Positions 8,439 to 33,211 of a stretch of 64,000 nt of DNA are shown here, piece by piece. Below the pieces are notes generated by a model. That model made no database searches. It had not been told where the DNA came from and saw nothing but the letters and a program-made list of their open reading frames with translations. Source of the DNA: an uncultured bacterium (lineage in GTDB: Bacteria > Patescibacteriota > Minisyncoccia > UBA6257 > GWB1-50-10); the NCBI GenBank assembly GCA_963713955.1, contig OY970216.1:637483-701482 (forward strand), read 5' to 3'. Each line of letters starts with the position of its first letter. Position 1 is the first letter of the stretch. A program made the translations under genes and the position numbers.

Positions 8439-8480
8439 GCTCCCGGTTGCTACTTTTGAAATAAATTCTAAAATAAATGT

Positions 8481-8738: not shown

Positions 8739-8744
8739 GATTAT

Positions 8745-16272: not shown

Positions 16273-16301
16273 GGCTCCCGGTGCGAAGCCCCCCGGGAGC
16301 C
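16273..16301. repeat. GC hairpin repeat ggctcccggtgcgaagccccccgggagcc (family C hairpin module)
   Basis: Perfect 9-bp stem; the same module occurs at 21390-21420, 24375-24394 (partial) and 33153-33184 (inverted). Confidence 0.6.
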
Positions 16302-16316
16302 CAAAGTTGATTTCTA

Positions 16317-16769
16317 TTATCGCATTCCCCCGTATACCAAGAGAGAAACCACGACGAGAACGACATAGATGAACGCGGTGTGGAAATAGAACATGCTCCG
16401 GAAGGTCTCGCCGATCCGGTTTTCGTGCGTCGGCGGATGGGGAGAAGAAAAATCCTCCGGAAGATTTCCCCTTTCGAAGAACTCGCGGAGAGCCGCTGCC
16501 ACCCGGTCCCGCCGCGCCTTGTAATCCTGACGGAAGGATTTGCTGAGGCCGTCCAGAATCCAAAACATAACGATCGCTATCGATACCAGGAGCACGATAC
16601 CCTTGCTCTTGGTCTCGAACGACCATCCCATAGCCGCGACCCACAAAGTGATTGCCCAGCTTTTCACACGGTCGAGCGACCGGTCATATTTGTCCATCTG
16701 CCCCTGACAGAGTTCGAATTCCGATTCCACGATGTTTATCTTATCGTTCTCGTTTGCCATTTCTCTCAT
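16317..16769 (-). CDS. Hypothetical small membrane protein (two TM helices)
   Basis: 150 aa; architecture shared with 16796..17293 and 32487..32783. Confidence 0.45.
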   Translation of the reverse strand: MREMANENDKINIVESEFELCQGQMDKYDRSLDRVKSWAITLWVAAMGWSFETKSKGIVLLVSIAIVMFWILDGLSKSFRQDYKARRDRVAAALREFFERGNLPEDFSSPHPPTHENRIGETFRSMFYFHTAFIYVVLVVVSLLVYGGMR

Positions 16770-19687: not shown

Positions 19688-20029
19688 TCAAACTGCATGG
19701 GACTGATTATTTTCCTCTCCTAGCCCAAGTTTCCTATCATCCCTCAAGAGGAACATTGCCATCGGCCCAAATGTAGCTGCGAGTACAACCCCCATCACCA
19801 CACGTGACAGAACCTTCTCCATAGATCCGTAGGAGGACCTTTCCTCCTTTAGCGCCTTTACAAATCCCCTCATCACAACGAACGCGGCATAGATCGATCC
19901 GACAGACCAGTAGATCGCCAATCCATAAAGAAACGGATTCTTAGAGAGGAAATTAAGGTGAAAAGGAATCAGGGTGAAAACCACAGCCGCCAGCAGGGCC
20001 ACCAGGTTAAATTTTTTCCAGTGCACCAT
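19688..20029 (-). CDS. Hypothetical small membrane protein (113 aa)
   Basis: Start at [23 protein letters not shown]. The upstream part of the track ORF is antisense to ybjQ-like and rejected. Confidence 0.45.
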
Positions 20030-20215
20030 TTCTTGACTCCCTTCTTTTTTTGTTTGTGTGCTTGCAAAAATAATGACACGCCCTATACCATTTGTCAAAG
20101 CGCAAGCGCCAGCCCTCGGGGCACGCGAACGCGCCCCGAGGGCCCAAAACCAATCGACCCTCAAGGACTCAAGTGCTACAATAACGGTATGGACAAAAGG
20201 ACAATAGACCATTCC

Positions 20216-20536
20216 ATGGTCACAACGGCTTTTGAACTCCCCAACTACCGCATTGTGAAAAACCTCGGCGTCGCGCGGGGCATCGTCGTCCGGTCGCGTT
20301 CGATCATCGGATCGATTGGCGCCGGCCTCCAGACGATCGTCGGCGGCAACATAACGCTGTTCAGCAAGCTCTGTGAACGGACCCGCGAGGATTCCTTCGA
20401 TATCATGCTGGATCACGCAGCTGCGATGGGAGCGAACGCCGTGATCGGTTTCCGTTACGACGCCACGCAGATCGGCGGCGGCATCACCGAGGTCCTCGCC
20501 TACGGCACCGCCGTCCTCGTGGAACCAAAAGCGTAA
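20216..20536 (+). CDS. YbjQ/UPF0145 family protein
   Basis: [60 protein letters not shown] matches the YbjQ consensus (MIVTTT..GYEI..LG.V.G..V). Alternative start at 20189. Confidence 0.8.
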
Positions 20537-20544
20537 AAAAGGCT

Positions 20545-20584
20545 GGCCCTCGGGAGTCCTACGGATTCCCGAGGGCCTTTTATT
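20545..20584 (+). terminator. Rho-independent terminator after the ybjQ-like gene
   Basis: GGCCCUCGGGAGUCCUACGGAUUCCCGAGGGCC + UUUUAUU. Confidence 0.6.
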
Positions 20585-20639
20585 GATTTCCACACCCTGC
20601 ACCCCTGCCTCCTGCACGCGGAGACATGGCGCAGGCAGG

Positions 20640-21309: not shown

Positions 21310-21335
21310 GTTTTTATTCTATCACTCGCCGCCGA

Positions 21336-21420
21336 GTTATCCACAGATTTATGGAGAGCGGGAGGCCATATATTGGGAGATAACTCCGTTGCGGCTCCCG
21401 GTGCAAAGCCCCCGGGAGCC
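21336..21420. repeat. Intergenic repeat, family C copy 1 (gttatccacagatttatggagagcgggaggccatata..gataactccgttgcggctcccggtgc..cccgggagcc)
   Basis: Near-identical to 24298-24394; its 5' part recurs inverted at 31166-31196; the 3' hairpin recurs at 16273-16301 and 33153-33184. Confidence 0.65.
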
Positions 21421-21426
21421 CCAGAA

Positions 21427-22026
21427 TTAATTGAAATCAATCTTCTTGATTATTTTGTCCACCTGCCACCGCTTATTAACCCGGCAAAGATACATTTCCT
21501 TCGCGATGAACGAAAACCCAACGCCCTTCGTTCTTTCCCGAACCTCTAGGGCATCTCTGGGATTTTTCAAATACCCCATGCTGAAATGCGGGCTGAAACC
21601 GGTGGGACGGCCGTATTTCCCGAACTCCCGCAAGTCCTTTGCCGTCCAAGTTTTAAACGTGAGAAGCGGCATCGTCCCGGTTCTCAGCGGATGGATCCTT
21701 TCGAATACTTTCCTCTGCAAGGAAACCAGTGATCTCGTCCTTGCCACGGAAAATCCGACCGTCATTCCCCTCTTGACTTGAGAAGCGTGGAAATCGGCGA
21801 CGTTCACCGTGAAAGGTCTCAAATCCTCAGCTATCTTTTCGAGTTCTTCGGCTATTTTATTGATTCTCCCTCCGGCGGTATTGAGATGCCACAGGGAAAG
21901 ATGCGGAATCAGTTTAACGTTGTCGACCACGAACTCGGCCGGACACCCGGCGGTTTCTTTCCTCATCCTCCGGCCGATTTTCTCCCGCAACCCCGCCGGT
22001 GGCAATATGACCACATCCAGAAGCAT
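21427..22026 (-). CDS. 2H phosphoesterase superfamily protein (LigT-like RNA 2',3'-cyclic phosphodiesterase)
   Basis: Two H-x-[ST]-x motifs: PHLSLWHL and PHFSMGYL. Confidence 0.7.
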   Translation of the reverse strand: MLLDVVILPPAGLREKIGRRMRKETAGCPAEFVVDNVKLIPHLSLWHLNTAGGRINKIAEELEKIAEDLRPFTVNVADFHASQVKRGMTVGFSVARTRSLVSLQRKVFERIHPLRTGTMPLLTFKTWTAKDLREFGKYGRPTGFSPHFSMGYLKNPRDALEVRERTKGVGFSFIAKEMYLCRVNKRWQVDKIIKKIDFN

Positions 22027-22113
22027 ATTTTATCTTATCACAATCTCCCCGATTCCTTTCTCTTATTCGCTTATTCGCACGAATTAGAGATATGAGTGCG
22101 CGGGGGATTATTG

Positions 22114-22374
22114 TTATAAAAGCTCGATGATACGGCGGGCGGGCAATTTTTGAATCGATACCAACCGGTAGAACATCTGCAAGCTTCTTTGGTCCTTTTC
22201 GACCATATCCGCCGCCGACAGAATCCCGAGATGTTTGGATGTCGCCTTGAATGACAATTTGATCTCATGCGCGATTTCGCCGACGGGTGCTTCCTTGTTC
22301 TGCTTCAAATATTGCAGAATAGCCAACCGCCGCCGATTGGCCAACGCCTTCAATGTCCTCTCTAATTCCTTCAT
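22114..22374 (-). CDS. ArsR/SmtB family transcriptional regulator
   Basis: 86 aa; ANRRRLAILQYL..PVGEIAHEIKLSFKATSKHLGILSAADMV winged-helix signature. Confidence 0.8.
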   Translation of the reverse strand: MKELERTLKALANRRRLAILQYLKQNKEAPVGEIAHEIKLSFKATSKHLGILSAADMVEKDQRSLQMFYRLVSIQKLPARRIIELL

Positions 22375-22411
22375 CCCCTCTTACCCTTTTATTATATCAT
22401 CTTCCTCATCT

Positions 22412-22433
22412 AATTCTCTCATTCGCGCGAATT
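22412..22433. promoter_or_regulatory. Candidate ArsR operator (palindrome core ATTCGCGCGAAT); related half-palindrome at 22066-22087
   Basis: tctcattcgcgcgaattagaga between arsR and the divergent zinc-ribbon gene; ttattcgcacgaattagaga upstream of the LigT-like gene. Confidence 0.3.
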
Positions 22434-22545
22434 AGAGAACTTAAGAATGGACAAGGAGACCGCTAGCGTGGAAAAATGGACAAAAACCACGGCTCGTGGT
22501 AATACAAAACTAAATAAACAGCAATATTAAAAAGGAGAATAAGGT

Positions 22546-22797
22546 ATGAACTACTCAGCCAGAGGTCCGGAGCATATCCTCTATTGCGACGACTGCAACG
22601 AACCCCTCCGAATGATGGACCGCAGGGGGATCTACTGCCCCAAGTGCAAAGTAAGCGATTCCGGACGGAGTCCGAAATTCATTATGTCCTGCGTGGATTG
22701 CAATAAACCTCTGCAAGTCACAGAGGGCGGAGGGCTGTATTGCGAGCACTGCCTTTTCTATCCCAGCCTGCAGGATGTAGCACTCGAAGAGTGTTGA
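22546..22797 (+). CDS. Small protein with two tandem zinc-ribbon (CxxC..CxxC) modules
   Basis: YCDDCNEPL..GIYCPKCK and MSCVDCNKPL..GLYCEHC; AAAGGAG 8 nt upstream of the ATG; divergent from arsR. Confidence 0.55.
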   Translation: MNYSARGPEHILYCDDCNEPLRMMDRRGIYCPKCKVSDSGRSPKFIMSCVDCNKPLQVTEGGGLYCEHCLFYPSLQDVALEEC

Positions 22798-22820
22798 ACA
22801 TCCAGCCAGTATTCGCAACG

Positions 22821-22851
22821 AATACCCAACATCTGTTGGGTATTTTATTTT
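22821..22851 (+). terminator. Rho-independent terminator (possibly bidirectional) between the zinc-ribbon gene and pilin-like gene 1
   Basis: AAUACCCAACAUCUGUUGGGUAUU + UUAUUUU. Confidence 0.6.
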
Positions 22852-22978
22852 AGCTATTTCCTATCCCCTAAGCCCTAACTTCCACCTTCCCGCCGCCGCC
22901 CGCATAGGTTTTAGTTCTTGCTTTCAACAAAAATTTTTCGATTTCGGTTTTGGGCATTTTCTTATCCGCCTAAGTGCA

Positions 22979-24244
22979 CTACTTTTGAGCATTGTACATA
23001 GCCTGGATCTCAGCCGCAGACAATGCTCGATTATAGATGCGGACGTCGTCAAAAAGGCCATCCATCATCCATCCCGAAACACTTGAAATGCTGATGTTAT
23101 CCGAAGACAAAACATTCCCCGTCACCGAAGATATATTCACAGACCCTGATTGCTTTACTCCGTTCACGTAGACATATGCGAATCCCGCGGAACGATCGAA
23201 GACGATGGCGATATGAGCCCAGGTATTCTGAAGATCTGATGGCCGATACCCAGCGTCACATGCAACAAGTCCTGTCACTAAATTGGTACCATCATTGAAG
23301 TGGATGTTTATTCCTGTTGCACTATAGCTAGAATTGTCGATTGAATATCCAGGATGACCAGATTGATAAGAGTTACTGTTACCAATTGGGAAAAAGGCTC
23401 TTGGATAAACATAACTTCGGTGATAACCCCATCCCACGATCGTCAAACTTCCGGTTTGGGGATATAGGCTTGCATTGTTTCCAACGATCACATTATCATC
23501 CGTCCCATTGAAGTTCCCAGCGTATTGTCCCACCTTGCCTTGAGTATAGTAGGAACCATTGGTTATGGAACCAGACCACGTCCCCTGATTCCCATTCCCA
23601 CTCATATCATTAGGGTTTCCATCGAGGGGCCAGTAACCAACCAATCCATTCGTATTGAATAAGGGATTCAGGGAAAGGTTTGATCCATAAGCTATGACTC
23701 CAGGAATCATAGGAACCATAGGACTTCCTTCAATCTGAGACTTGTATTTCTGTGACTCAGGGAGACCGGTAAGTTCAAAGGAACCTCCCATGGTGTAGGT
23801 ATAGTAGAGGCCCGAACTCGTGGTGTTTATGGGATCAATAGGGAGCTTTGACAAAGGAGAACCTGATGAAATGAGGGTTAGATTGACGGGAATCCAGCCT
23901 GTTCCGTCTACCTTGGTTGAGGAAGAGCTTGGAACACAGTGATAACTCCAGCCTGTGGGAGGGGTAGGGAGACCCAAGGAGCCGCAGGTCGAAGAAGCGT
24001 TGTCGGGAACTGAGAGATAGAGGGTATTTGGAGTCCCTAAAGATTGACTCCACTCATCTGCCTGGAAGAGAGATAAAGCACTGTTTAAAGCTGCCAAGTC
24101 AGACAAACGAGTGGAATCTCTTCCCTGGGCCAGAAGCTGGGCAGGATTCAGGACGAGGACGACTGCGGTTGCGAGGACAGCAAGGATTGCTATCACAACC
24201 AGGAGCTCAATCAATGTAAAAGATTCTCTACTTCGCAGATTCAT
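22979..24244 (-). CDS. Prepilin-type N-terminal cleavage/methylation domain protein with C-terminal LamG (concanavalin A-like) domain, paralog 1
   Basis: Start at MNLRSRES|FTLIELLVVIAILAVLA (type IV pilin class III signal, Glu+5); C-terminal GLFDDVRIYNRALSAAEIQAMYNAQK (Laminin_G_3-type motif). The 51 upstream codons of the track ORF read through repeat C and are rejected. Confidence 0.8.
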   Translation of the reverse strand: MNLRSRESFTLIELLVVIAILAVLATAVVLVLNPAQLLAQGRDSTRLSDLAALNSALSLFQADEWSQSLGTPNTLYLSVPDNASSTCGSLGLPTPPTGWSYHCVPSSSSTKVDGTGWIPVNLTLISSGSPLSKLPIDPINTTSSGLYYTYTMGGSFELTGLPESQKYKSQIEGSPMVPMIPGVIAYGSNLSLNPLFNTNGLVGYWPLDGNPNDMSGNGNQGTWSGSITNGSYYTQGKVGQYAGNFNGTDDNVIVGNNASLYPQTGSLTIVGWGYHRSYVYPRAFFPIGNSNSYQSGHPGYSIDNSSYSATGINIHFNDGTNLVTGLVACDAGYRPSDLQNTWAHIAIVFDRSAGFAYVYVNGVKQSGSVNISSVTGNVLSSDNISISSVSGWMMDGLFDDVRIYNRALSAAEIQAMYNAQK

Positions 24245-24297
24245 TAGTTCAATTATAGCAGGAAAACGTCCTGCCTTTTTGTTCTGGGAGGAGAGTG

Positions 24298-24394
24298 TAG
24301 TTATCCACAGATTTATGGAGAGCGGGAAGCCATAATGAGAGCGGGAGGCCATATAATTGGGGGATAACTCCGTTGCGGCTCCCGGTGCGGAGTC
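24298..24394. repeat. Intergenic repeat, family C copy 2 (with an internal 20-nt duplication), just upstream of pilin-like gene 1
   Basis: agttatccacagatttatggagagcgggaagccataatgagagcgggaggccatataattgggggataactccgttgcggctcccggtgcggagtcc. Confidence 0.65.
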
Positions 24395-24463
24395 CAAATT
24401 TCTATTCCCTATCCCTCTAACCCGTCCGAGCCTTGAGGAGAAATCGAGTTAATGCATCTCTGT

Positions 24464-25255
24464 TCATAATTTGAATAACTTCTTCGCGTTTTTCCAGAAG
24501 ATCCTCTCCTTATCTCTCCCAGGGATCTTCAGCGAATTGATGAGATCGATATGTTCCTGGAAGCCGCATATAGCGTAGTCCGTTCCGAACAAGACGCTTT
24601 CCGGGTTGTCCCTCACGGTCCGTTCCAGAACATCCCTTATCTTATTCAGGCCGATTCTCCTCACCACTTCTTCGTCAGCGAGCCCGGAAGTGTCGAAATG
24701 GATATTCCTGAAACCTCTCGTCATGTCGTAGCAGTAGTCAACTTCCGGATAGAAATAGTGGGCGATGACGATCTTGAGATCCGGAAATTGTTTCGCGACT
24801 TCGACGATATGCTTCGGGTCGTTGTACTCCGCGGCCTCCGGGTGGTTCGGGTTCGAGCCGGTATGGATCACGATAGGGCGACCGTATTTCACGCAGAGTT
24901 TGTAAACGGGCATTAATCTCTCGTCCGTCGGATAGATCGGGTCGTGTCCCGGGAATATCTTGATGCCTCTTATCTTATCCTCCCTGAAAAGCCGGTCCAG
25001 CTTACCCATCCATTCCTTCCCGTCACTCCTCACGTCTATCGTTCCCAGGAGAAAAATATTTTTCTCGCTTTCGGTCAGCCTAAGGCATATATCCAGATCC
25101 CCTATTCCCGAACCGCGTATATTGTCGGGAATCATCACCGCGGCATCGATACCGCCATCCTTCATGTCGGAAAGAAGTTTCTTCTTTGCAACCTCGAAAT
25201 CAAAGCCCGAGCCGCTCTTCACAACAGGTAAGTGAACGTGTGCGTCTATTATCAT
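24464..25255 (-). CDS. Amidohydrolase-2 family metal-dependent hydrolase (TIM barrel)
   Basis: Start at MIIDAHVHLP (classic amidohydrolase HxH); ..VIHTGS.., ..IAHY.. further metal-ligand positions. Confidence 0.75.
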   Translation of the reverse strand: MIIDAHVHLPVVKSGSGFDFEVAKKKLLSDMKDGGIDAAVMIPDNIRGSGIGDLDICLRLTESEKNIFLLGTIDVRSDGKEWMGKLDRLFREDKIRGIKIFPGHDPIYPTDERLMPVYKLCVKYGRPIVIHTGSNPNHPEAAEYNDPKHIVEVAKQFPDLKIVIAHYFYPEVDYCYDMTRGFRNIHFDTSGLADEEVVRRIGLNKIRDVLERTVRDNPESVLFGTDYAICGFQEHIDLINSLKIPGRDKERIFWKNAKKLFKL

Positions 25256-25340
25256 ATTTTCATCCGGGCTTTCGATAAAAATTTTTCCAGTTCGGTTTTT
25301 ACAGCTGGAGGAGACATTTGTTCTAACTTTACTACTCCTG

Positions 25341-25613
25341 TTACTGCACCTCATTCTGAACTTCTTCAGACCCGACCGGAGCGGCAGGCACCTGTAGCGA
25401 TGATAGTTTTGTTCGTATAGACCCTAAAAGTGTATTGGTAACCTTGGAGATGTCACCTATTTCCTCCAGCAAGTTAACTATTTTATTTATTTTCCAATAC
25501 CAACAGAAAAACTCGCGCAAAATAATGAAAAGACATATCGCTATCACTATCCATGCTATAAAAACCAACGCGTTGGAACTGCTCACCAGTTGCCCAAAAA
25601 TAAATTGATTCAT
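25341..25613 (-). CDS. Hypothetical small membrane protein (island)
   Basis: 90 aa, one TM helix, AT-rich coding. Confidence 0.4.
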   Translation of the reverse strand: MNQFIFGQLVSSSNALVFIAWIVIAICLFIILREFFCWYWKINKIVNLLEEIGDISKVTNTLLGSIRTKLSSLQVPAAPVGSEEVQNEVQ

Positions 25614-25656
25614 ATTCAGTTTTTACCCCCTAACTTCCTCGACCTTTCAAAAACTA

Positions 25657-25992
25657 CTACTTCTTGGAGAAATTTTTATAAACCTTATTTATGAAGTAAG
25701 CAATGGCACCTAAAGAAATTACCTCTACCACTAACCCGGCCACAGGATTGATGCCACTAAGGAAAATGGATATAACTAATTGAATAATAGCTATTATCAA
25801 AAGAGCAATTGTAACAAACGTTAAAACCCTACTCCACCTTGTAGTATTTCCATCAAACTTCTCGATAGAATCCTTCAATCGTCGCATCATTTCAACTTGA
25901 GCACCTTGAGACTTGAGACCACTTGTTGTACCTATAACTGTCTCACTAGCCAAGTTTACCAATTCTTCGTCTTTTTTATTTTTAAATTCCAT
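25657..25992 (-). CDS. Hypothetical small membrane protein (island)
   Basis: 111 aa, two C-terminal TM helices. Confidence 0.4.
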   Translation of the reverse strand: MEFKNKKDEELVNLASETVIGTTSGLKSQGAQVEMMRRLKDSIEKFDGNTTRWSRVLTFVTIALLIIAIIQLVISIFLSGINPVAGLVVEVISLGAIAYFINKVYKNFSKK

Positions 25993-26151
25993 AATTTATC
26001 TCAATTATTTCTACAACTTCTATTGTTCTAGCTCCAATCTAACCACATTTCAAGGAAAAGCTGGGCCCGGGTCCTGCTTCCTGCCTGGGGCAACGTCTTC
26101 GCGGCCAACAATATTACCTAAGGTAAACTATTATGTTCTCGTTCCATAGTT

Positions 26152-26772
26152 CTATTTATTCCAACCAAAAAGGTAAACGAGATAAGCAATGACTAGGCCT
26201 ATAATAACTGTAGATATGATCTTATTTTTCTTAATCCAACGCCAGGCATTACCAAAAACAAGTCTCCAATACGCACGATGCGGATTTTTAACATCCTTAA
26301 TGGTAATTCCTTCTGGCGTGAATTCTTTCCCTACCTGGACAAAAGACACTGAACCACCAGCACCACCATCGCCGCCCTTGCTACCATTGAATCCATGACC
26401 ACCGTGACCGCCAGAAGCCTCAATTTTAGGTCCGGAGCTCTTCGGCTCGAACAATGACTTGAATTCCTCTTCGCCCATACTTTCTAGTTTCCCGTGTATA
26501 TAATTCAGATCCTGTATCACAGCATCAATATCATCGAGAATTTCCACATTGTTTGAAAAGGCAGAAAGATACACATCACTATTCTTGCTTAACGCGTTAA
26601 TATACTTCTCATACTTGCCGTAGGCCTGAGTCAATCCGGCCCGATGTATCAATAATGTCCGTTCCCGTGAGTCGGAAGATAACGAATAATCGGCGTTCAC
26701 AAAGGTTCGCCGGTAATTTTCAACCTGAGAACGAAAGACTGAAACTTGTGTTTTTAAATCATTAATTGTCAT
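26152..26772 (-). CDS. Hypothetical protein with Gly-rich segment and C-terminal TM anchor (island)
   Basis: Start at MTINDLKT; SGGHGGHGFNGSKGGDGGAGGS; C-terminal IISTVIIGLVIAYLVYLFGW. Confidence 0.4.
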   Translation of the reverse strand: MTINDLKTQVSVFRSQVENYRRTFVNADYSLSSDSRERTLLIHRAGLTQAYGKYEKYINALSKNSDVYLSAFSNNVEILDDIDAVIQDLNYIHGKLESMGEEEFKSLFEPKSSGPKIEASGGHGGHGFNGSKGGDGGAGGSVSFVQVGKEFTPEGITIKDVKNPHRAYWRLVFGNAWRWIKKNKIISTVIIGLVIAYLVYLFGWNK

Positions 26773-26798
26773 TACTCTCTGGCACACCTACTCATCTG

Positions 26799-26850
26799 GC
26801 AGTTCACTAACAATCCAAGCCGGGCGATGCCCGGCTTGGAAGTGATTGAC
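26799..26850 (-). terminator. Hairpin terminator downstream of the R-M pair
   Basis: CCAAGCCGGGCAUCGCCCGGCUUGG on the minus strand followed by AUUGUUAG. Confidence 0.4.
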
Positions 26851-26967
26851 TTTCGAGTCGGGGCTCTTTCTCTCTATTCCCCGCCTGCTCTTTATTCGAT
26901 TACCTTAATTTTAACCCTCTTAAATTAGAACACAAAGAAGTTGTCCACCTTGCCTCCAGAGCTTGGA

Positions 26968-27765
26968 TCAGATGATTGTCGTCACTTTTTCGTACAACAT
27001 TGGCAAACAATCCTGCCTCATGCGGAATTTTGTCCCATGATTGTGGCCAGTGCGGGCATCGAAATCAACAAGCACATTGCCCTTTTCTAAAGCCTTCAAG
27101 AATCCTTCGAAGCTAAATTTCTGCAACATCATCACTTTTGTATATTTGTAATATTCTTTTCCACGTTCTACCTTCGATTCCGCTTGAACATAGAAAGCAT
27201 TAAGTAATTTCGTACCAGCCTTATGTTCTAGATCATCAAATCCCCAATACGGTTGCGGATCAAGTTCACCTAACCCGGTTCGTTTCTTGACTAGCTTAAG
27301 CCAATCCTTGTGTCTAGGATCAACACTTTTGGCATTAAACGAAACTAAGACCTTCTCTTCCTTACGATCTATGGTAACTTTAAAACCACGATCGCTTCGT
27401 GACTTACCATGAATAGTTTGACGAAAACTCATCTCGCCTTTCCTATACAGCTTCCCCGCTTCCTCATGGGGCCATCCGTATAGAGGAAGTAAAACCTGGG
27501 GCACGAATCTTATAGCACGGGGCGACGGTTCAGTATGAAATAGTGTGGTTAGCGAGGTGGTGTTTGTCCTCTGCGCCTTCAATTCCCACTCCGCCGCGTT
27601 CGGGATTGGTAGGTTATTCTCTTTAATACCAAGCAGATCCTCAAGTGTATTACCTACGCCGCCAGTATTACCCCTCCGTGCGTTTGGGATCCACCCCATC
27701 GCAGAAATTTTTCTCAGTTTTGCTATCAATGCTGGTTTTGTATAGATTACTGGTCTCTTCTTCAT
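26968..27765 (-). CDS. Type II restriction endonuclease, MvaI/BcnI family-like
   Basis: N-terminal LRKISAMGWIPNARRGNTGGVGNTLEDLLGIKENNLPIPNAAEWELK resembles the MvaI/BcnI catalytic N-terminus; 3 nt downstream of an N4/N6 MTase. Confidence 0.6.
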   Translation of the reverse strand: MKKRPVIYTKPALIAKLRKISAMGWIPNARRGNTGGVGNTLEDLLGIKENNLPIPNAAEWELKAQRTNTTSLTTLFHTEPSPRAIRFVPQVLLPLYGWPHEEAGKLYRKGEMSFRQTIHGKSRSDRGFKVTIDRKEEKVLVSFNAKSVDPRHKDWLKLVKKRTGLGELDPQPYWGFDDLEHKAGTKLLNAFYVQAESKVERGKEYYKYTKVMMLQKFSFEGFLKALEKGNVLVDFDARTGHNHGTKFRMRQDCLPMLYEKVTTII

Positions 27766-27767
27766 AG

Positions 27768-28577
27768 TTATAAGAGCTTTGACTGGTGTTTATACTCTTT
27801 AATTCTCTTTTCTGCCATCTCACAATATTCTGGTGAGACATCTATTCCTATATAGTTTCGCTTATTGTTCATCGCAGCAATTGCTGTAGTACCAGAACCC
27901 ATAAATGGATCCAAGATCATCTTGGCATTCGTCGCGGAAACAATCCGGTCAATTAAATTAACCGGAAAGGCAGCGGGATGTTCATTATTCATTTCTTGAG
28001 TAAATTCCCAAACATCGCCACGAGCATTAGCTTTTGGCGAAAGTTTGAACTTAGGCTTGGCAATCAGATAGATTACCTCGTAAGTTGGAAGGAAATAACC
28101 CGGGTTGAAATTCAATCCCCCTTTTCGCTTCCAGATAATAATCTGGCGAATTGGAAAACCACTGACGATATCCTGACGATCTTGCAGTAAACCACCCTGC
28201 ACGCGCCACTTGTGGTTGTAAAAAATTGCACCATCATCTGGTATAACTCGCATCATCTCTGTCAGGCAATCTCTTTGCCACTTAACATATTCTTCGTGTG
28301 GCATACAGTCATCATGGTTCGCATACCCTTTTTGAAGTGCGGCATTGGCCCATTTGCCACCTCGACCATCTTTCATTCCATTGCCAGTAGAATTCTTCAA
28401 GTTATAGGGCGGCGAAGTGACCACCAGATCAACCGCCCCATCCGGTATCTGTCTCATTACATCAACTGCATCACCACAAATGATCTTGTTTATAAAATCT
28501 TTGGGAAATCTAATGTCTTTTGAGATTTGTTTATTCGGAGTAATAGTTCCTCTTTTTAATACTGTTGATGGTTTCAT
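27768..28577 (-). CDS. DNA methyltransferase, beta-class N4-cytosine/N6-adenine (SPPY motif)
   Basis: DLVVTSPPYNL (motif IV) and LDPFMGSGTTAIAA (FxGxG SAM-binding motif I) in circularly permuted beta order, as in M.MvaI/M.BcnI-type m4C MTases. Confidence 0.85.
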   Translation of the reverse strand: MKPSTVLKRGTITPNKQISKDIRFPKDFINKIICGDAVDVMRQIPDGAVDLVVTSPPYNLKNSTGNGMKDGRGGKWANAALQKGYANHDDCMPHEEYVKWQRDCLTEMMRVIPDDGAIFYNHKWRVQGGLLQDRQDIVSGFPIRQIIIWKRKGGLNFNPGYFLPTYEVIYLIAKPKFKLSPKANARGDVWEFTQEMNNEHPAAFPVNLIDRIVSATNAKMILDPFMGSGTTAIAAMNNKRNYIGIDVSPEYCEMAEKRIKEYKHQSKLL

Positions 28578-28722
28578 GATGGGAAGGATATAAGCTAATA
28601 TTACCCCATTTTTCTGTATTTTTCATCATCGAATATTATACGCAGCCGTGTTTAGTCATTTATTTAGATCCTTCCTTTTTCCCTTTTCTCCAACCACCAT
28701 TTCTTGAAAAACGGCATAAAAA

Positions 28723-29082
28723 TCAGAGCTCCGTATACTTTCTATGGCTCCCCCACGCTTTCTTGACGGGGTATTTTTTCTCGTTCTTCTCCATCTTCTT
28801 CTCCAAAGCTTTCTTAATGTCTATATCCAAATCGTGGCTCATAAGGAGCACCCAGTAGAGCACATCGGCCAGTTCTTCACCTATGTGCTCCTTGTGGGTT
28901 TTGATGTATTTTTTAATTTCCTCGCCATTCTTCCACTGGAAGTGCTCCAAGACTTCAGCGGCTTCCAAGGAAAGAGAAATGGCCACATCCTTCGGATTGT
29001 GAAACTGCTTCCAATTCCTGGCGTTCCTGAACTTTAAAATCCTGTTGGTTAGCGCTTTTATGTCGGACATGGTATCCCTCAA
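28723..29082 (-). CDS. MazG-like nucleotide pyrophosphohydrolase (all-alpha NTP-PPase)
   Basis: LSLEAAEVLEHFQW..EELADVLYWVLLMSHDL EExxE/D motifs. Confidence 0.7.
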   Translation of the reverse strand: MRDTMSDIKALTNRILKFRNARNWKQFHNPKDVAISLSLEAAEVLEHFQWKNGEEIKKYIKTHKEHIGEELADVLYWVLLMSHDLDIDIKKALEKKMEKNEKKYPVKKAWGSHRKYTEL

Positions 29083-29188
29083 ATTCTACCCCTTCCGCCT
29101 CTCCATAATCCGCCAGCCGGCGGATGTGGATAACCATCCCCCACCCCGCCGAAAAGCAGAAAGGCGCCATCTGAGTTAGAATATACCT

Positions 29189-29884
29189 ATGGACCTCAAT
29201 GGCAAAATCGTTGTTATTACAGGTGGCAGCAAAGGTTTAGGTAGATCTCTGGCTGAACTTTTGTCAAAAGAAGGTGCGAAACTGGCTATCTGTTCTCCCG
29301 AGGAGGAGGAAATTCTTGCGGTTGCGAAGGAGATTGGTTGCTTGGGAATACGAGCCGATGTACGCCGCGAAGAAGAAGTTAAAAAACTTGCTGAACTTAC
29401 GGAGCGGGAATTTGGAAGAATTGACATATGGATAAACAATGCCGGCATCCGGATTCCGAGAGTTCCACTCGAGGATACAGACATGAAAAGAGTGCACGAG
29501 ATGGTGGAAGTGAATCTTTTCGGGACAATGTACGGTTCCAAGGCGGCGATGATCCAAATGAAAAAACGAAAAGAAGGTACAATCGTAAACATACTTTCGA
29601 CAAGTGCACTTGAGGGAGCGAAATATTCCACCGGATACGGAGCCAGCAAGGGCGGAGCCATAGCTTTTACGAAATCGCTCAGAGTAGAACTTTCACCCTT
29701 TGGAATAAGTGTCATCGGTGTTTATCCCAAGGGAATGAGAACGGAGTTTTTCCGCGAGAATAAGCCAGCTGATTATGAAAAATACATGGACCCAAGAGAA
29801 GTAGCACGGCAAATCGTGAACAATCTCAAGAAAAACAAACCGGAAGAAGAATTCTTCATCAAAACTGATCCGTCTGCTCCTTAA
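29189..29884 (+). CDS. Short-chain dehydrogenase/reductase (SDR) family oxidoreductase
   Basis: ITGGSKGLG (TGxxxGxG), NNAG, YGASKGG (YxxxK). Confidence 0.85.
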   Translation: MDLNGKIVVITGGSKGLGRSLAELLSKEGAKLAICSPEEEEILAVAKEIGCLGIRADVRREEEVKKLAELTEREFGRIDIWINNAGIRIPRVPLEDTDMKRVHEMVEVNLFGTMYGSKAAMIQMKKRKEGTIVNILSTSALEGAKYSTGYGASKGGAIAFTKSLRVELSPFGISVIGVYPKGMRTEFFRENKPADYEKYMDPREVARQIVNNLKKNKPEEEFFIKTDPSAP

Positions 29885-29937
29885 GTTCTCCTCCCACAAA
29901 CAAAAAAGCATGGCGTTTTCCTGCTATAATTGAACTA

Positions 29938-31157
29938 ATGAACTTTCGTTTCAGAGAATCTTTTACCTTAATTGAGCTTCTTGTAGTCATAGCCATCCTT
30001 GCCGTCTTAGCAACCGCCGTCATCCTAATCCTGAATCCTGCCCAGCTCTTAGCCCAAGGAAGAGACTCCACCAGACTCTCTGATCTTGCAGCTCTGAATA
30101 GTGCTCTCTCCCTCTTCCAGGCTGATCAATGGAGTCAATCCATGGGATTAGCTTCCACCACCTATATCTCAGTCCCTGATCATCATCCACCTGTGGTAAT
30201 CTAGGCCTCCCTGCCTTACCTTCAGGCTATTCCTATCACTGTGTCCCCAGTGCTTCCTCCACGAGAATAGATGGTACCGGCTGGATTCCCGTCAATCTAA
30301 CCCTCATATCATCAGGATCTCCTCTTTCGAAGCTCCCCCTAGACCCCCTGAACACTACCTCGAGTGGAGAATACTATACCTATACGCCAGGAGGATCCTT
30401 TGAACTCACGGCCATACCCGAGTCCCAGAAGTACCGCGCTCAGTATCAAACCATTCCTCCCCTTCAGAACATTCCTGGAGTTATAGCCTATGGATCGAAT
30501 CTTTCCCTCTCTCCCCTCTTCAATACCCAAGGGTTAGTGGGGTATTGGCCGCTGGATGGAAACTCTAATGATATGTCTGGGAATGGGAATAATGGGAGTT
30601 TAACGGCGGGGGTAGGATGGGGAAACGGTAAAATTGGTTCAGCGTTGAGTTTAAATGGTAGTGGTAATGATTACGCTCGGGTTTCTCGTGTGGTGGCCAA
30701 TGATTTTTCAATTTGTTTATATGTTAAGGCATTGAGTGATTCTACGTCGGGATCGCAATGGTACCATGGACAGGGACTTTTTGATTCAGAGGTTAGTGGT
30801 GTCGTGAACGACTACGGCGTAGCATATCTTAATAACAAGGCTGCGTTTGGTACGGGGAACCCCGACACAACTATCCAGAGCACCCAATTCATAAACGATG
30901 GAATATGGCATCAAGTATGTGCTACCAGGATACAAAGTAGCGGAAGCATTTTTTTGTACGTAGACAGCAATTTACAGGCGAGTACAACTGAGGCGAATAC
31001 CGCATCTCTCACGGCACCGACATATTCTTATATGGGCAGCTCAAATGGAGGTGTCGGAAATCACGGGATCATTAATGGCCTCATCGACGACGTTCGCGTC
31101 TACAACAGGGCTTTGTCAGCAGCAGAGATTGCGGCTATATACAACGCCCAGAAATAA
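29938..31157 (+). pseudogene. Prepilin::LamG paralog 2, disrupted by a frameshift (4-nt deficit relative to paralog 3 near 30170-30200)
   Basis: Frame A 29938..30204 (MNFRFRES|FTLIELLVVIAILAVLA...SVPDHHPPVVI*); frame B continues ..SSSTCGNLGLPALPSGYSYHCVPSASSTRIDGTGWIPVNLT.. through 30537..31157 (..GLIDDVRVYNRALSAAEIAAIYNAQK). Confidence 0.6.
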
Positions 31158-31165
31158 ATACTCAA

Positions 31166-31196
31166 CCTCCCGCTCTCCATAAATCTGTGGATAACT
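31166..31196. repeat. Family C repeat, 5' module in inverted orientation, between paralogs 2 and 3
   Basis: cctcccgctctccataaatctgtggataact is the reverse complement of agttatccacagatttatggagagcgggagg. Confidence 0.6.
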
Positions 31197-31251
31197 ATCT
31201 CCTCCTTTCAAAAACAAAAAGCCAGGACATTTTCCTGCTATAATTAAACAA

Positions 31252-32478
31252 ATGAACTTTCGTTCCCGAAGCAGCTTCACTTTGATCGAGCTCCTTGTCG
31301 TGATCGCGATCCTGGCTGTCCTAGCCACAGCAGTCGTCCTAGTCTTAAACCCCTCCCAGCTCCTTGCTCAGGGAAGGGATTCCACCCGTCTCTCAGACCT
31401 GGCAGCTCTGAATAGCGCTTTATCCTTGTTCCAGGCTGATGCCTATACCCAGTCATTGGGGACTCCCAATACCCTCTACATCTCAGTCCCTGACAATGCC
31501 TCCTCCACCTGTGGATCCCTGGGTCTTCCCACCCCTCCCACAGGCTATTCCTATCACTGTGTCCCCAGTGCTTCCTCCACGAGAATAGATGGTACCGGCT
31601 GGATTCCCGTCAATCTAACCCTCATATCATCAGGATCTCCTCTTTCGAAGCTCCCTATTGATCCCATAAACACTACCTCATCTGGTCTCTACTACACCTA
31701 TGTCTCAGGAGGATCATATGAATTGACCGGTCTACCTGAATCACAGAAGTACAAGGCACAGATTGAAGGCAACCCAATGATTCCCATGATTCCCGGAGTC
31801 ATAGCCTATGGTTCCAACCTTACCTTATCTCCCTTGTTCAGTACCCAGGGGTTAGTGGGCTATTGGCCTCTCGATGAAGGGTCCGGCTCAACAGCCAATG
31901 ATATGAGTGGGAATGGGAATAATGGGACGTGGAATGGAAGTGGAACGCATTATGCTCAGGGTAAGGTTGGGGGGTTCGCTGGGCAATTCAATGGGACAAG
32001 CACACAAGATTACACTAGCGCTCCTTATAACACTTCACTCAATGTAACGAGTCTTACTATAACCGCCTGGGTCAAAAACTCGGCAACGGGAGAGAGGGTT
32101 GTCGCCTCAAAATTTGGTTCATCACCTTATCAAGGTTATTGGTTTGGCGAAGACAGTGGTGGTGGATTGCGGGTTTGCTTAGGTACAGGTGGTCAGACAT
32201 GTATTAATAAGGGACTTTTTCCTACCGATAATACCTGGCATTTTATTTCTTTTACTTATGACAATACGACCGGTACTTGGAATTTCTATATTGATGCTTC
32301 TACAACTGGTTCATCTACGGCAGTTACCGCTATAGCACCGGTTAATACGGATTTTCGGATCGGAGTCGGCCAGTGGAGTTCAAGCGACTATTTTCAGGGA
32401 CTAATCGACGATGTTCGTATCTACAACCGAGCGTTGTCCGCAGCGGAGATAGCTGCTATCTATAACGCACAGAAGTAA
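31252..32478 (+). CDS. Prepilin::LamG paralog 3
   Basis: MNFRSRSS|FTLIELLVVIAILAVLA..; C-terminal GLIDDVRIYNRALSAAEIAAIYNAQK. Confidence 0.8.
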   Translation: MNFRSRSSFTLIELLVVIAILAVLATAVVLVLNPSQLLAQGRDSTRLSDLAALNSALSLFQADAYTQSLGTPNTLYISVPDNASSTCGSLGLPTPPTGYSYHCVPSASSTRIDGTGWIPVNLTLISSGSPLSKLPIDPINTTSSGLYYTYVSGGSYELTGLPESQKYKAQIEGNPMIPMIPGVIAYGSNLTLSPLFSTQGLVGYWPLDEGSGSTANDMSGNGNNGTWNGSGTHYAQGKVGGFAGQFNGTSTQDYTSAPYNTSLNVTSLTITAWVKNSATGERVVASKFGSSPYQGYWFGEDSGGGLRVCLGTGGQTCINKGLFPTDNTWHFISFTYDNTTGTWNFYIDASTTGSSTAVTAIAPVNTDFRIGVGQWSSSDYFQGLIDDVRIYNRALSAAEIAAIYNAQK

Positions 32479-32486
32479 TTCCGTTT

Positions 32487-32783
32487 TTATTTATCTTTTT
32501 CCTTTTTTGAAAGCCCCCACGACCTATGCGTAGGTGTGCGGGTTAACCACCACTTCTTGAAGAAGGGCATCGTGAGCGTGGAAAGCATGAAGGCGACTGC
32601 CGGGACGACGGCATTCAGCCACGGGTTCGGAATCCTGATCGCCCACATATAGACGCCAAGCGCGAGGTACGTGAAGACTGTGAGGAGCCCGCGCCTCGTC
32701 CAACTCTTCTCCCACGCCTTGTCCCCCTCGACTTTTTTGTTTCTCTCCTCGATCCTTTGAACTCTCTCCTCGAAATTCTCCAT
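32487..32783 (-). CDS. Hypothetical small membrane protein (paralog of 16796..17293)
   Basis: Start at MENFEERVQRIEERNKK; two TM helices. Confidence 0.45.
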   Translation of the reverse strand: MENFEERVQRIEERNKKVEGDKAWEKSWTRRGLLTVFTYLALGVYMWAIRIPNPWLNAVVPAVAFMLSTLTMPFFKKWWLTRTPTHRSWGLSKKEKDK

Positions 32784-33152: not shown

Positions 33153-33184
33153 GGGGACTCCCGGGGACTTCGCACCGGGAGGCC
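33153..33184. repeat. Family C hairpin module (inverted): ggggactcccggggacttcgcaccgggaggcc
   Basis: Reverse complement ggcctcccggtgcgaagtccccgggagtcccc matches 16273-16301. Confidence 0.55.
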
Positions 33185-33211
33185 ATAGATCCTGGGGATA
33201 AACTGCAGTCA

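What the first reader, a model, noticed from the sequence alone, without database searches (positions are those of the whole stretch)
21336..21420. Repeat family C: a composite intergenic element (5' module gttatccacagatttatggagagcgggagg plus 3' GC hairpin ggctcccggtgc..cccgggagcc), preferentially next to pilin-like genes
Full copies lie at 21336-21420 and 24298-24394 (the latter with an internal 20-nt duplication). The 5' module alone is inverted at 31166-31196, between pilin copies 2 and 3. The hairpin module alone is at 16273-16301 and, inverted, at 33153-33184. All sit in short spacers between same-strand genes. They could be REP-like elements, recombination hot-spots for the pilin family, or regulator binding sites.
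Basis: seen in the sequence. Interest (0 to 1): 0.5.

Follow-up and report, generated by a model that had tools for sequence, protein, structure and literature searches.

The report
Mosaic palindromic intergenic repeats, CPR bacterium
The repeats are real: a small, locally clustered family of non-coding palindromes between genes of an ultra-small (Patescibacteria) bacterium, shared in outline with a related species, probably acting as gene-boundary punctuation or protein-binding sites and not specifically tied to the pilin-like genes.

Summary
I found six copies or fragments, one of them new, all within window 16.3-33.2 kb. None occurs in the other ~90 kb of this genome that I could sample.

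The element has two palindromic modules. One is a GC hairpin just after the upstream gene's stop codon.

A related species (81% identical helicase) has the same layout: stop codon, hairpin, 49-nt palindrome, then a -10 box. Its outer arms are the same (AGTTATCC[A/C]CA), but its inner sequence and flanking genes differ. These arms match the strong DnaA boxes R1 and R4 of E. coli oriC over 11-12 nt.

The pilin link is incidental. Only 2 of 7 sampled pilin-like genes carry the element, and those two are paralogues that share their whole upstream region.

There is no Rfam match. No integrase or transposase lies in the window, and none with matching ends was found in the sampled DNA. There are no target-site duplications and no U-tract.

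Best reading: a REP/BIME-like mosaic repeat serving as intergenic punctuation, with the conserved arms as a protein-recognition site. The mechanism is inferred, not shown.

The parts
16273..16301 (.). Copy E: GC hairpin module only (GGCTCCCGG-11 nt loop-CCGGGAGCC). It starts 15 nt after the stop of the DUF2270 gene (stop at 16317-16319, minus strand). It ends 2-11 nt before the likely GDPD start (ATG at 16270 or 16261).
   Evidence: Folds at -22.7 kcal/mol, z -2.84. Similarity to copy A runs on to 16312 (D16). Neighbouring genes.
21335..21385 (.). Copy A, 49-51-nt imperfect palindrome: AGTTATCCACAGATTTATGG-AGAGCGGGAGG-CCATATATTGGGAGATAACT. The left arm carries a perfect TTATCCACA.
   Evidence: GTTATC-N37-GATAAC. 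Aligns without gaps to the relative's 49-nt palindrome, 34/50 identical with all of the outer 7 nt of each arm identical.
21393..21420 (.). Copy A, GC hairpin (9-bp stem, 10-nt loop). It starts 6 nt after the stop codon of the ligT-like gene (21427-21429, minus strand).
   Evidence: No T-run on either side.
21316..21321 (-). Context: extended -10 box (TGaTAGAAT) of the DUF3850 gene, whose ATG is at 21309. The palindrome's end (TGGATA) falls at the -35 position, 16 nt upstream.
   Evidence: The homologous GCGGCGA..TAGAAT follows the relative's palindrome.
24299..24369 (.). Copy B, the same palindrome with a 19-nt tandem duplication (24318-24336 / 24337-24355). It lies 52 nt upstream of the pilin-like gene's ATG at 24246 (minus strand).
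   Evidence: (D13, D19).
24376..24394 (.). Copy B, truncated hairpin: 5' arm and start of the loop only (GGCTCCCGGTGCGGAGTCC). It lies 69 nt after the amidohydrolase stop codon (24464).
   Evidence: This copy's fold is not better than shuffles (z -1.3 and -0.24).
29095..29135 (.). Copy F (new): degenerate 5' module CCGCCTCTCCATAATC[CGCCAGCCGGCGGA]TGTGGATAACC with a palindromic 14-nt insertion. It sits in the divergent promoter region between the MazG-like gene (start 29082, minus) and adh_short (start 29189, plus).
31166..31196 (.). Copy C: 31-nt fragment (one arm plus loop), inverted. It lies between pilin-like copy 2 (stop 31157) and copy 3 (ATG 31252). It is identical to copy A over all 31 nt.
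   Evidence: (I23, I15, I17).
33155..33203 (.). Copy D: hairpin (33155-33184, one mismatch in the stem) fused to one palindrome arm (33185-33203, containing TTATCCCCA). It is inverted relative to copy A. It starts 8 nt after the DEAD-helicase stop (33212) and ends 46 nt before the MazG-like ATG (33108).
   Evidence: (D12, I24). The relative's copy Y2 occupies the same post-helicase position.

Best explanation
**What it is.** Family C is a lineage-specific family of mosaic palindromic intergenic repeats. The genome is a Parcubacteria/Patescibacteria (CPR) genome, a single 804,691-bp contig. The element has two separable palindromic modules:
- a ~28-nt GC-rich hairpin placed directly behind the stop codon of the upstream gene;
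- a 49-nt imperfect palindrome whose outer arms, AGTTATCC[A/C]CA, are sequence-conserved between species.

**How it spread.** Copies spread within a 17-kb stretch. Two travelled with gene paralogues (the pilin-like pair B/C). At least one copy (A) has flanks unrelated to the others, which points to gene conversion or recombination.

**How it most likely works (inferred, not shown).**
- The cassette is transcribed at the 3' end of the upstream gene.
- It folds into stable stem-loops that end, attenuate or protect that transcript.
- It sits just ahead of the next gene's own promoter, a -10 box 6-13 nt from the ATG.
- The invariant arm sequence is a recognition site for a protein.

There is no specific link to the pilin-like genes.
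For: **Real repeats with sharp boundaries**
-.

**Position**
- All six copies are intergenic.
- The hairpin or arm starts 6-15 nt after a stop codon in copies A, D and E.
- Downstream genes carry their own TAGAAT or TATAAT box next to the ATG.

**Structure**
- Copy A folds as two hairpins at -40.3 kcal/mol, z -2.9.
- Copy E's hairpin folds at -22.7 kcal/mol, z -2.8.

**Cross-species evidence**
- The relative L022/L023 has a helicase 81% identical in protein and 79.8% in DNA.
- It has its own hairpin repeat, AATCTATCGAGGCCnGGCCTyGATAGATT. Five copies occupy four consecutive spacers, abutting stop codons and preceding -10 boxes.
- One composite copy in the relative reads stop, hairpin, 49-nt palindrome (GTTATCCCC...GGGGATAAC), GCGGCGATAGAAT. 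Copy A has the same order, the same 49-nt span and the same outer arms.
- The genes flanking that composite copy have no homologue next to copy A.
- The spacer after the helicase gene holds copy D here and copy Y2 in the relative. It holds a canonical terminator (CTGCGGC-GCAC-GGCCGCGG-TTTTTTT) in an 82% relative and a long hairpin in a 78% relative. That position therefore calls for a stem-loop.

**Sequence-specific constraint**
- GTTATC is present in 9 of 10 arms across the two species.
- Copies B and C are 97-100% identical within the module. Their paralogous flanks are 82-91% identical, and the pilin-like coding sequence 79% (I1, I15, I17, I23).

**Not pilin-specific**
-.
Against: **Against the terminator reading**
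- No U-tract follows any family-C hairpin. The terminator scan did not flag them, although the same genome has canonical terminators, for example at 20545-20577 and 42744-42781.
- Copy E's hairpin ends 2-11 nt before the likely GDPD start. A strong terminator there would block that gene.

**Against a function needing a fixed strand or an intact copy**
- Copy D's hairpin is inverted relative to the genes.
- Copy C has no hairpin potential.
- Copy B's hairpin is truncated, and its fold is no better than shuffles.

**Favouring the rival explanations**
- In copy A the arm keeps a perfect TTATCCACA at the cost of base pairing: 4 mismatches in 21 pairs. That fits sequence recognition on DNA better than RNA structure.
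- The conserved termini, conserved length and different gene contexts also fit a non-autonomous transposon.

**Limits of the data**
- No expression data were available.
- Only about 13% of the genome could be sampled.
Confidence: 0.45

Rival explanations
1. DNA-level operator. The palindrome arms are binding sites for DnaA or another dimeric regulator. Binding would control the adjacent promoters, or the sites would form a local DnaA-binding cluster. On this reading the GC hairpin is an unrelated neighbouring terminator-like element.
For: **Match to DnaA boxes**
- Four arms carry a perfect TTATCCACA (21337, 24301, 29125, 31186). All four are intergenic.
- With flanks they read GAGTTATCCACA and CTGTGGATAAC. 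These are the same 11-12-mers as boxes R4 and R1 of E. coli K-12 oriC.

**Pattern of conservation**
- The outer 7 nt of every arm is invariant between two species while the interior diverges. The 49-bp span is kept.
- The perfect box is kept at the expense of stem pairing.

**Single boxes next to promoters in other species**
- L025:20696 is TTATCCACA, 6 nt upstream of TTGACA-17-TATAAA ahead of tuf.
- L008:16606 is TTATCCCCA, 7 nt upstream of TTGACA-17-TAATAT.
- L023:57 is TTATCCACA, 3 nt upstream of TAGAAT.
Against: - The DNA specificity of CPR DnaA is unknown, and I found no paper on it.
- Three of the four perfect boxes are copies of a single 31-nt repeat, so they are not independent observations.
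- The partner arms are poor boxes: TTATCTCCC and TTATCCCCC.
- The distance from box to -10 varies: 16, 29 and 41-44 nt.
- TTATCCCCA also occurs inside a coding region (L008:427).
- There is no GC-skew switch in the window, so this is not oriC.
Confidence: 0.2
2. Selfish non-autonomous mobile element, MITE- or REPIN-like. A transposase encoded elsewhere would recognise the terminal inverted repeats AGTTATCC.../...GGATAACT. The fragments are decay products, and the host gains no function.
For: - Terminal inverted repeats are conserved and overall length is kept at 49 nt, while the interior diverges.
- Copy A's flanks are unrelated to those of copies B and C.
- The same cassette sits in front of non-homologous genes in two species.
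- Truncated and rearranged forms exist (copies C, D, F) and there is a 19-nt internal duplication.
- A short-read contig, L003, breaks inside the module.
Against: - No target-site duplication flanks copies A, B or Y45.
- There are only two full copies. All six copies lie within 17 kb of the ~107 kb sampled, with none in L021, in the new part of L027, or in L030.
- The window encodes no transposase, RAYT or integrase.
- The end of the nearby IS3-type element that could be read (the other lies beyond the fetched locus) is unrelated.
- Copies D and Y2 occupy the same position after the helicase gene in two species. That argues for inheritance in place.
- An exact 20-mer of the module is absent from 185,579 species genomes, from the JGI metagenomes (one chance hit) and from IMG/VR.
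Confidence: 0.2
3. Recombination sites. The elements would be junctions used to shuffle gene modules: pilin-family recombination hot-spots, integron-attC-like cassette boundaries, or the inverted ends of the low-GC island.
For: - All copies sit at junctions between unrelated accessory genes.
- Copies A and D are mutually inverted. They bracket the low-GC segment at ~22.0-32.5 kb (GC 0.37-0.50 against 0.50-0.59 outside).
- That segment carries a restriction-modification system, an amidohydrolase whose best relatives are archaeal or from other phyla, and three pilin-like genes.
- In the relative, the ligT-like gene lies next to the helicase with none of this segment between them.
- Copy F lies at the edge of the only plus-strand gene block.
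Against: - No integrase or recombinase is encoded in the window.
- The core-site order is the reverse of attC: GTTATC...GATAAC rather than RYYYAAC...GTTRRRY. Neither heptamer fits the attC consensus.
- Most spacers in the region have no copy.
- Only 2 of 7 pilin-like genes have a copy.
- There is no copy at the right edge of the inverted block (32478-32487).
Confidence: 0.07
4. A small RNA gene, riboswitch or cis-regulatory leader for the downstream gene.
For: - Copy A has a stable predicted fold on both strands.
- It sits upstream of genes.
Against: - There is no Rfam match at gathering score, and none at E<=1 in 16-34 kb.
- The -10 boxes lie downstream of the element, 6-13 nt from the ATG. 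The element is therefore not in the leader of the downstream gene.
- The downstream genes are unrelated to one another.
- Fragments lack the fold.
- Both orientations occur.
Confidence: 0.03

Closest known systems
REP / BIME elements of enterobacteria and pseudomonads (including REPIN-RAYT systems)
   Same: - Short, non-coding, imperfect palindromes in spacers between co-directional genes.
- Mosaic combinations of modules that occur in either orientation.
- Transcribed in 3' UTRs, where they act as stem-loops.
- Some BIMEs have a protein-binding motif between inverted palindromes.
   Different: - No conserved GTAG-type head.
- No RAYT gene seen.
- Few copies, confined to 17 kb of the DNA sampled.
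- The arm sequence is conserved across species while the GC hairpin is species-specific.
BOX elements (Streptococcus pneumoniae), ERIC/IRU and Correia elements (Neisseria)
   Same: - Modular or palindromic intergenic repeats of 50-150 nt.
- They can be co-transcribed, fold into stem-loops and sit next to promoters.
- They have terminal inverted repeats.
   Different: - No sequence similarity.
- No TA duplication, which Correia elements have.
- Much lower copy number.
- Host is a CPR bacterium. Neither of my two literature searches brought up a paper describing such elements in this group.
Intrinsic (Rho-independent) terminators
   Same: A GC-rich stem-loop a few nucleotides after the stop codon. 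The orthologous spacer in an 82% relative holds a canonical terminator.
   Different: No U-tract follows the stem, although this genome has terminators that do carry one. The sequence is also repeated almost identically at several loci.
DnaA boxes and DnaA-box clusters (E. coli oriC R1/R4, datA, DARS; Bacillus subtilis DBCs)
   Same: The arms contain TTATCCACA, with the same flanks as E. coli R1 and R4 over 11-12 nt. The boxes are intergenic, inverted and clustered.
   Different: - Not at an origin of replication.
- Only one good box per element.
- Binding was not tested.
- DnaA specificity in CPR bacteria is unknown.
Integron attC sites
   Same: Imperfect palindromes of 50-100 nt at the 3' end of small, same-strand accessory genes.
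   Different: - The core sites are in the wrong order and do not fit the consensus.
- No integrase is present.
- The genes have their own promoters.
- Most gene junctions lack a copy.

Membership tests
REP / REPIN (RAYT-mobilised) | Short imperfect palindrome in extragenic DNA | tested here: met
   Hairpins at 16273-16301, 21393-21420 and 33155-33184, plus the 49-nt palindrome at 21336-21384. All are intergenic.
REP / REPIN (RAYT-mobilised) | Conserved GTAG-like tetranucleotide at the 5' end of the palindrome | tested here: not met
   The hairpins are preceded by (A/C)TTTGG or TTCTGG. The palindrome begins AGTTATC.
REP / REPIN (RAYT-mobilised) | Many copies dispersed over the genome | tested here: not met
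   Six copies, all within 16.3-33.2 kb. None was found in the other 47 kb of the window or in L021, the new part of L027, or L030. About 107 kb was sampled, or 13% of the genome. The rest could not be scanned.
REP / REPIN (RAYT-mobilised) | A RAYT (Y1 transposase) gene in the genome | not testable with these tools
   None is present among the genes of the window or the fetched loci.
MITE (non-autonomous DNA transposon) | Terminal inverted repeats | tested here: met
   AGTTATC...GATAACT in copies A, B and Y45.
MITE (non-autonomous DNA transposon) | Target-site duplication flanking the element | tested here: not met
   Flanks are CAACGG/CGGCGG for copy A, CAACGG/ACACTC for copy B and GATAAA/GCACAT for Y45. 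None is a direct repeat.
MITE (non-autonomous DNA transposon) | A parent IS with the same ends | tested here: inconclusive
   The only IS seen is IS3-type, at L027 20460-21502. The one end that lies within the locus is unrelated. Most of the genome was not sampled.
Intrinsic terminator | GC-rich stem-loop shortly after the stop codon of the upstream gene | tested here: met
   Gaps between stop codon and element are 6 nt (copy A), 15 nt (copy E) and 8 nt to the arm of copy D. Stems are 9 bp with 8 GC pairs.
Intrinsic terminator | U-tract immediately 3' of the stem | tested here: not met
   The stems are followed by GCAACGG, GTATGAT or CCAAATT. None was listed by the terminator scan.
Integron attC | R'' (RYYYAAC) ... 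R' (GTTRRRY) core sites in that order | tested here: not met
   The order is reversed: GTTATCC first and GGATAAC last. Each heptamer has 2 mismatches to the consensus.
Integron attC | Integron integrase nearby, or a dense array with one attC per cassette | tested here: not met
   Pfam finds no integrase across the whole window. Most spacers in 14-35 kb have no copy.
DnaA box (high-affinity, E. coli type) | 9-mer TTATCCACA (TTATNCACA) | tested here: met
   Perfect at 21337, 24301, 29125 and 31186. One mismatch at 33193. The flanks equal those of E. coli oriC R1 and R4.
DnaA box (high-affinity, E. coli type) | Bound by the organism's DnaA, with the same box used at its oriC | not testable with these tools
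   The dnaA/oriC region of this genome could not be fetched. No paper on CPR DnaA boxes was found.
Rfam RNA families | Match to a curated covariance model | tested here: not met
   At gathering score the window yields only a tRNA. No hit on the elements at E<=1 in 16-34 kb.

The most novel reading that the evidence does not exclude
The invariant arms, AGTTATCC[A/C]CA, would be genuine high-affinity DnaA boxes, or sites of another global regulator. The 49-bp inverted pair would be a protein-binding architecture conserved among Parcubacteria. It would tie a local cluster of promoters, or a datA/DARS-like DnaA-titration locus, to the replication initiator. That would be a rare glimpse of gene regulation in organisms with very few transcription factors.
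Probability: 0.15. Interest if true: 0.65.

Novelty: new variant of a known kind. Interest (0 to 1): 0.4.

Why it matters
CPR/Patescibacteria genomes are tiny and gene-dense, and almost nothing is known about their non-coding DNA, promoters or regulators. My two literature searches for intergenic, REP- or MITE-type repeats in this group brought up no paper describing them.

This family keeps its architecture across two species: stop codon, GC hairpin, 49-nt palindrome, -10 box. The inner sequence and the neighbouring genes change. So something other than chance maintains it.

If the arms do bind DnaA or a global regulator, they give a directly testable handle on transcription and replication control in an uncultured lineage. 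If they are only REP-like stem-loops, the result is ordinary, but it removes a false lead about pilin-gene recombination.

Tried and rejected
**Collection scans for an exact 20-23-mer of the 5' module**
- GTDB species genomes: 0 hits.
- JGI metagenomes: 1 hit, which is a chance match inside a coding region of an unrelated low-GC contig.
- IMG/VR: 0 hits for both modules.

**Second genome scan**
- I spent it on the amidohydrolase next to copy B. It returned only relatives at <=64% identity, from archaea, CPR and other phyla.
- That gave no orthologous locus. It does hint that the gene was horizontally acquired.

**Paralogue look-ups**
- Look-ups for P0003, P0013, P0014 and the rpoC fragment were not on record.
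- Only ~43 kb of extra DNA from this genome was obtained (L021, L027, L030).

**Readings considered and rejected**
- Rfam, at gathering score and at E<=1: nothing on the elements.
- Sigma-54 or ECF promoter: rejected by eye, because the spacing does not fit.
- Integron attC: rejected on core-site order and absence of an integrase.
- Binding site of the local ArsR-type regulator (22114-22374): rejected. A different palindrome, TCTCTAATTCGyGCGAAT, sits upstream of that gene and its neighbour.
- Diversity-generating retroelement: rejected. There is no reverse transcriptase, and the element is upstream of the genes rather than at their 3' ends.
- oriC: rejected, because GC skew is negative throughout the window.

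**Other checks**
- A weight-matrix scan for further arms found none above the level of known copies in this genome or the relative.
- A TTATCCCCA-N3-TAGAAT match in L008 turned out to lie inside a coding region.
- One fuzzy-regex script timed out.

Full report
**1. Observation**

The sequences are at the stated coordinates.
- The 30-nt 5' module GTTATCCACAGATTTATGGAGAGCGGGAGG occurs at 21336 (+), 24300 (+, one mismatch) and 31166 (-). Shuffles give 0.00 expected matches.
- The hairpin core CTCCCGGTGC occurs four times, at 16275, 21395, 24379 and 33172, against 0.19 expected.
- The full hairpin GGCTCCCGG-loop-CCGGGAGCC is at 16273-16301, 21393-21420 and, inverted with mismatches, 33156-33183.

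Five corrections are needed.
- The duplication in the 24.3-kb copy is 19 nt (D13).
- That copy has only half of the hairpin.
- The 33.15-kb copy also carries one palindrome arm, 33185-33203.
- A sixth, degenerate copy lies at 29095-29135. It is the module with a 14-nt palindromic insertion.
- The "5' module" is the left part of a 49-nt imperfect palindrome, GTTATCC...GATAAC, at 21336-21384.

**2. Anatomy and context**

Almost all genes around the elements are on the minus strand. Read in gene direction, copy A runs as follows:
- the stop codon of a ligT-like 2'-5' RNA-ligase-superfamily gene, then 6 nt;
- the GC hairpin, then the linker GCAACGG;
- the palindrome AGTTATCTCCCAATATATGG-CCTCCCGCTCT-CCATAAATCTGTGGATAACT, then 13 nt;
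- TGaTAGAAT, then 6 nt, then the ATG of a DUF3850 gene.

The other copies sit as follows.
- Copy B lies between an amidohydrolase and a pilin-like gene (N_methyl + Laminin_G_3).
- Copy C lies between pilin-like copies 2 and 3.
- Copy D lies between a DEAD-box helicase and a MazG-like gene.
- Copy E lies between a DUF2270 gene and a GDPD gene.
- Copy F lies between a second MazG-like gene and adh_short, which are divergent.

Copy A folds as two hairpins at -40.3 kcal/mol (z -2.9). Copy E's hairpin folds at -22.7 kcal/mol (z -2.8). The truncated copies B and D fold no better than shuffles.

About a quarter of the genes in the window have a TAnAAT box that starts 11-19 nt upstream of the ATG, leaving about 6-13 nt between the box and the ATG. 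Many genes therefore look like separate, nearly leaderless transcription units.

No family-C hairpin has a U-tract, and the terminator scan did not list them. Canonical terminators do exist in the same region.

**3. Organism and sampling**

- Pilin-like and helicase homologues carry names from Patescibacteria (Paceibacteria, Jorgensenbacteria, Wolfebacteria and others).
- The proteins of the window sit on a contig of 804,691 bp.
- The same DNA appears on ENA contigs of assembly ERZ25039477. The stretches read there (copies A and B) are identical to the window.
- A Logan contig stops inside the module.
- The exact module is absent from the GTDB species genomes, from the JGI metagenomes (one chance hit) and from IMG/VR.
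- By protein look-ups I obtained about 43 kb more of this genome (L021, the new part of L027, L030). It holds no family-C copy.
- All six copies therefore lie within 17 kb of the ~107 kb sampled.

**4. Pilin association**

The window has five pilin-like genes, and L021 and L030 hold one each. Only the genes at 24246 (-) and 31252 (+) have the module upstream.

These two, and the one at 29938 (which has no module), share the sequence CTCCTCCC..AACAAAAAGGCAGGACGTTTTCCTGCTATAATTGAACTAATGAA, running on into the coding region. So the module travelled with a gene duplication.

The module is 97-100% identical between copies B and C. The adjacent paralogous DNA is 82-91% identical and the coding region 79%. 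That indicates either constraint or recent gene conversion.

Copy A has unrelated flanks. At least one copy was therefore made independently of its neighbours.

**5. Related species**

The closest helicase relatives are 82%, 81%, 78% and 75% identical.

In the 81% relative (L022/L023; two samples, 99.95% identical):
- Four consecutive spacers hold five copies of a different palindrome, AATCTATCGAGGCCnGGCCTyGATAGATT. The copies abut stop codons and precede TAGAAT, TATAAT or TACTAT boxes.
- At L022 8775-8890 the order is stop, hairpin, GTTATCCCCAATATTATTGAGGCCCGGCCTTGATAGATTTGGGGATAAC, GCACATTGCGGCGGGAACTTGCGGCGATAGAAT.
- That palindrome spans exactly 49 nt, as in copy A.
- It aligns to copy A without gaps at 34/50 identity. 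The outer AGTTATC and GGATAAC are fully conserved, and the GCGGCGA..TAGAAT tail is shared.
- The flanking genes are not homologous to those around copy A.
- A further AGTTATCCACA lies at L023:57.

The spacer after the helicase gene differs among species:
- copy D in this genome;
- copy Y2 in the 81% relative;
- a canonical terminator in the 82% relative;
- a long hairpin in the 78% relative.

**6. The arms**

- GTTATC is present in 9 of 10 arms across the two species.
- Four arms carry a perfect TTATCCACA.
- With their flanks they equal boxes R4 (GAGTTATCCACA) and R1 (CTGTGGATAAC) of E. coli K-12 oriC, which I read directly.
- Single boxes lie 6-7 nt upstream of perfect TTGACA-17-TAnAAn promoters in two other Patescibacteria loci (L025, L008).
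- These are anecdotes. One similar match lies inside a gene.
- GC skew shows no origin in the window.

**7. Interpretation**

Shown:
- a real, local, mosaic family of palindromic intergenic repeats;
- an architecture and arm sequence conserved across two species;
- no specific pilin link;
- no match to Rfam;
- no integrase, transposase or RAYT in the window;
- no target-site duplications.

Inferred, with the confidence I give each reading:
- *Punctuation cassette (0.45, preferred).* A 3' stem-loop for the upstream transcript plus a protein-recognised palindrome ahead of the next promoter, homogenised locally by gene conversion.
- *DNA-level operator for DnaA or another regulator (0.2).* This and the mobile-element reading below are the serious rivals.
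- *Selfish MITE/REPIN-like element (0.2).*
- *Recombination-site reading (0.07).* It has only circumstantial support. Copies A and D are mutually inverted and bracket a low-GC accessory segment at 22.0-32.5 kb.

**8. Novelty and score**

Intergenic palindromic repeats are a well-known kind. This family fails the strict REP, MITE, attC and terminator definitions (see the membership table). It lies in a group where my two literature searches brought up no paper describing such elements. I rate it a new variant of a known kind, with interest 0.4.

The most novel reading not excluded is a conserved DnaA or regulator-binding architecture, at probability about 0.15.

Noticed in passing
window 8345-8445; partial copy at 54929-54968; also L027 13690-13765, L021 ~5899-5979 and ~8672-8748, L030 20775-20845; relatives L023 1-25 and L028 5590-5650: A second repeat family of ~95-nt near-perfect hairpins. 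The apical module is conserved (AAAAAGTGGGTAAGACTTGGGCTAGCGCCCCGGAGCGCACACTTTTT). The basal stems differ between copies but stay paired. It is dispersed (6 copies in ~107 kb), shared with related species and has no Rfam match. At 8430-8445 it reads GGCCTCCCGCTCCCGGTTGC, which joins the two family-C motifs.
   Followed up: partly
window 52887-52930 and 55849-55892: A 44-nt inverted pair, 98% complementary and 2.9 kb apart, bracketing the nusB and thymidylate-kinase genes. Its core, CCGGGGCG..GCCCAAGTCTTAGCC, resembles the apical module of the hairpin family above.
   Followed up: no
L022 4416-4445, 6430-6459, 8444-8473, 8778-8807, 8815-8844: The related species has its own intergenic palindrome, AATCTATCGAGGCCnGGCCTyGATAGATT. 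Five copies sit in four consecutive spacers, in both orientations, abutting stop codons.
   Followed up: yes
window ~22000-32500: A low-GC segment (0.37-0.50 against 0.50-0.59 outside). It carries a type II restriction-modification pair (N6_N4_Mtase + MvaI_BcnI, 26968-28577), an amidohydrolase whose best relatives are archaeal or from other phyla (<=64% identity), and three pilin-like genes. It is probably an acquired accessory island. In the relative, the ligT-like gene sits next to the helicase without this segment.
   Followed up: partly
window 29938-31157: Pilin-like copy 2 is split over two reading frames: the N_methyl part at 29938-30204 and the Laminin_G_3 part at 30537-31157. It is probably a pseudogene or carries a frameshift.
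   Followed up: no
window 24258-24274, 29915-29931, 31223-31237: A small hairpin, GCAGGACGTTTTCCTGC (GCATGGCGTTTTCCTGC in the copy upstream of pilin-like copy 2, where it pairs less well), sits immediately upstream of the extended -10 box (TGcTATAAT), the TG being part of the hairpin's last bases, in all three closely related pilin-like paralogues. It is a candidate operator for these genes.
   Followed up: no
window ~22030-22090 and ~22380-22440: A shared motif, TCTCTAATTCG(C/T)GCGAAT, lies upstream of both the ArsR-type HTH gene (22114-22374) and the ligT-like gene (21427-22026). It is probably that regulator's operator.
   Followed up: no
window-wide, for example upstream of 21309, 29189, 31252, 33108, 51401 and 51459: About a quarter of the genes have a TAnAAT box that starts 11-19 nt upstream of the ATG (about 6-13 nt between box and ATG), with no obvious Shine-Dalgarno sequence. 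This suggests frequent leaderless or very short-leader mRNAs.
   Followed up: partly
window 19688-20617 (minus) and 20225-20536 (plus): The 309-aa minus-strand ORF called in the public assembly is probably spurious in its first two-thirds. A YbjQ_1 gene lies on the plus strand (20225-20536), flanked by GC hairpins at 20112-20143 and 20545-20577. The second hairpin is a canonical terminator.
   Followed up: partly
window 59545-61125 and 61101-63248: The RNA polymerase beta' subunit is encoded as two overlapping ORFs: Rpb1 domains 1-3 in one and domains 4-5 in the other. This is either a natural split or a frameshift.
   Followed up: no
L027 20460-21502 (about 8-9 kb upstream of the window start): An IS3-type transposase (HTH_Tnp_1 + rve). 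The one end that lies within the fetched locus is unrelated to family C.
   Followed up: partly
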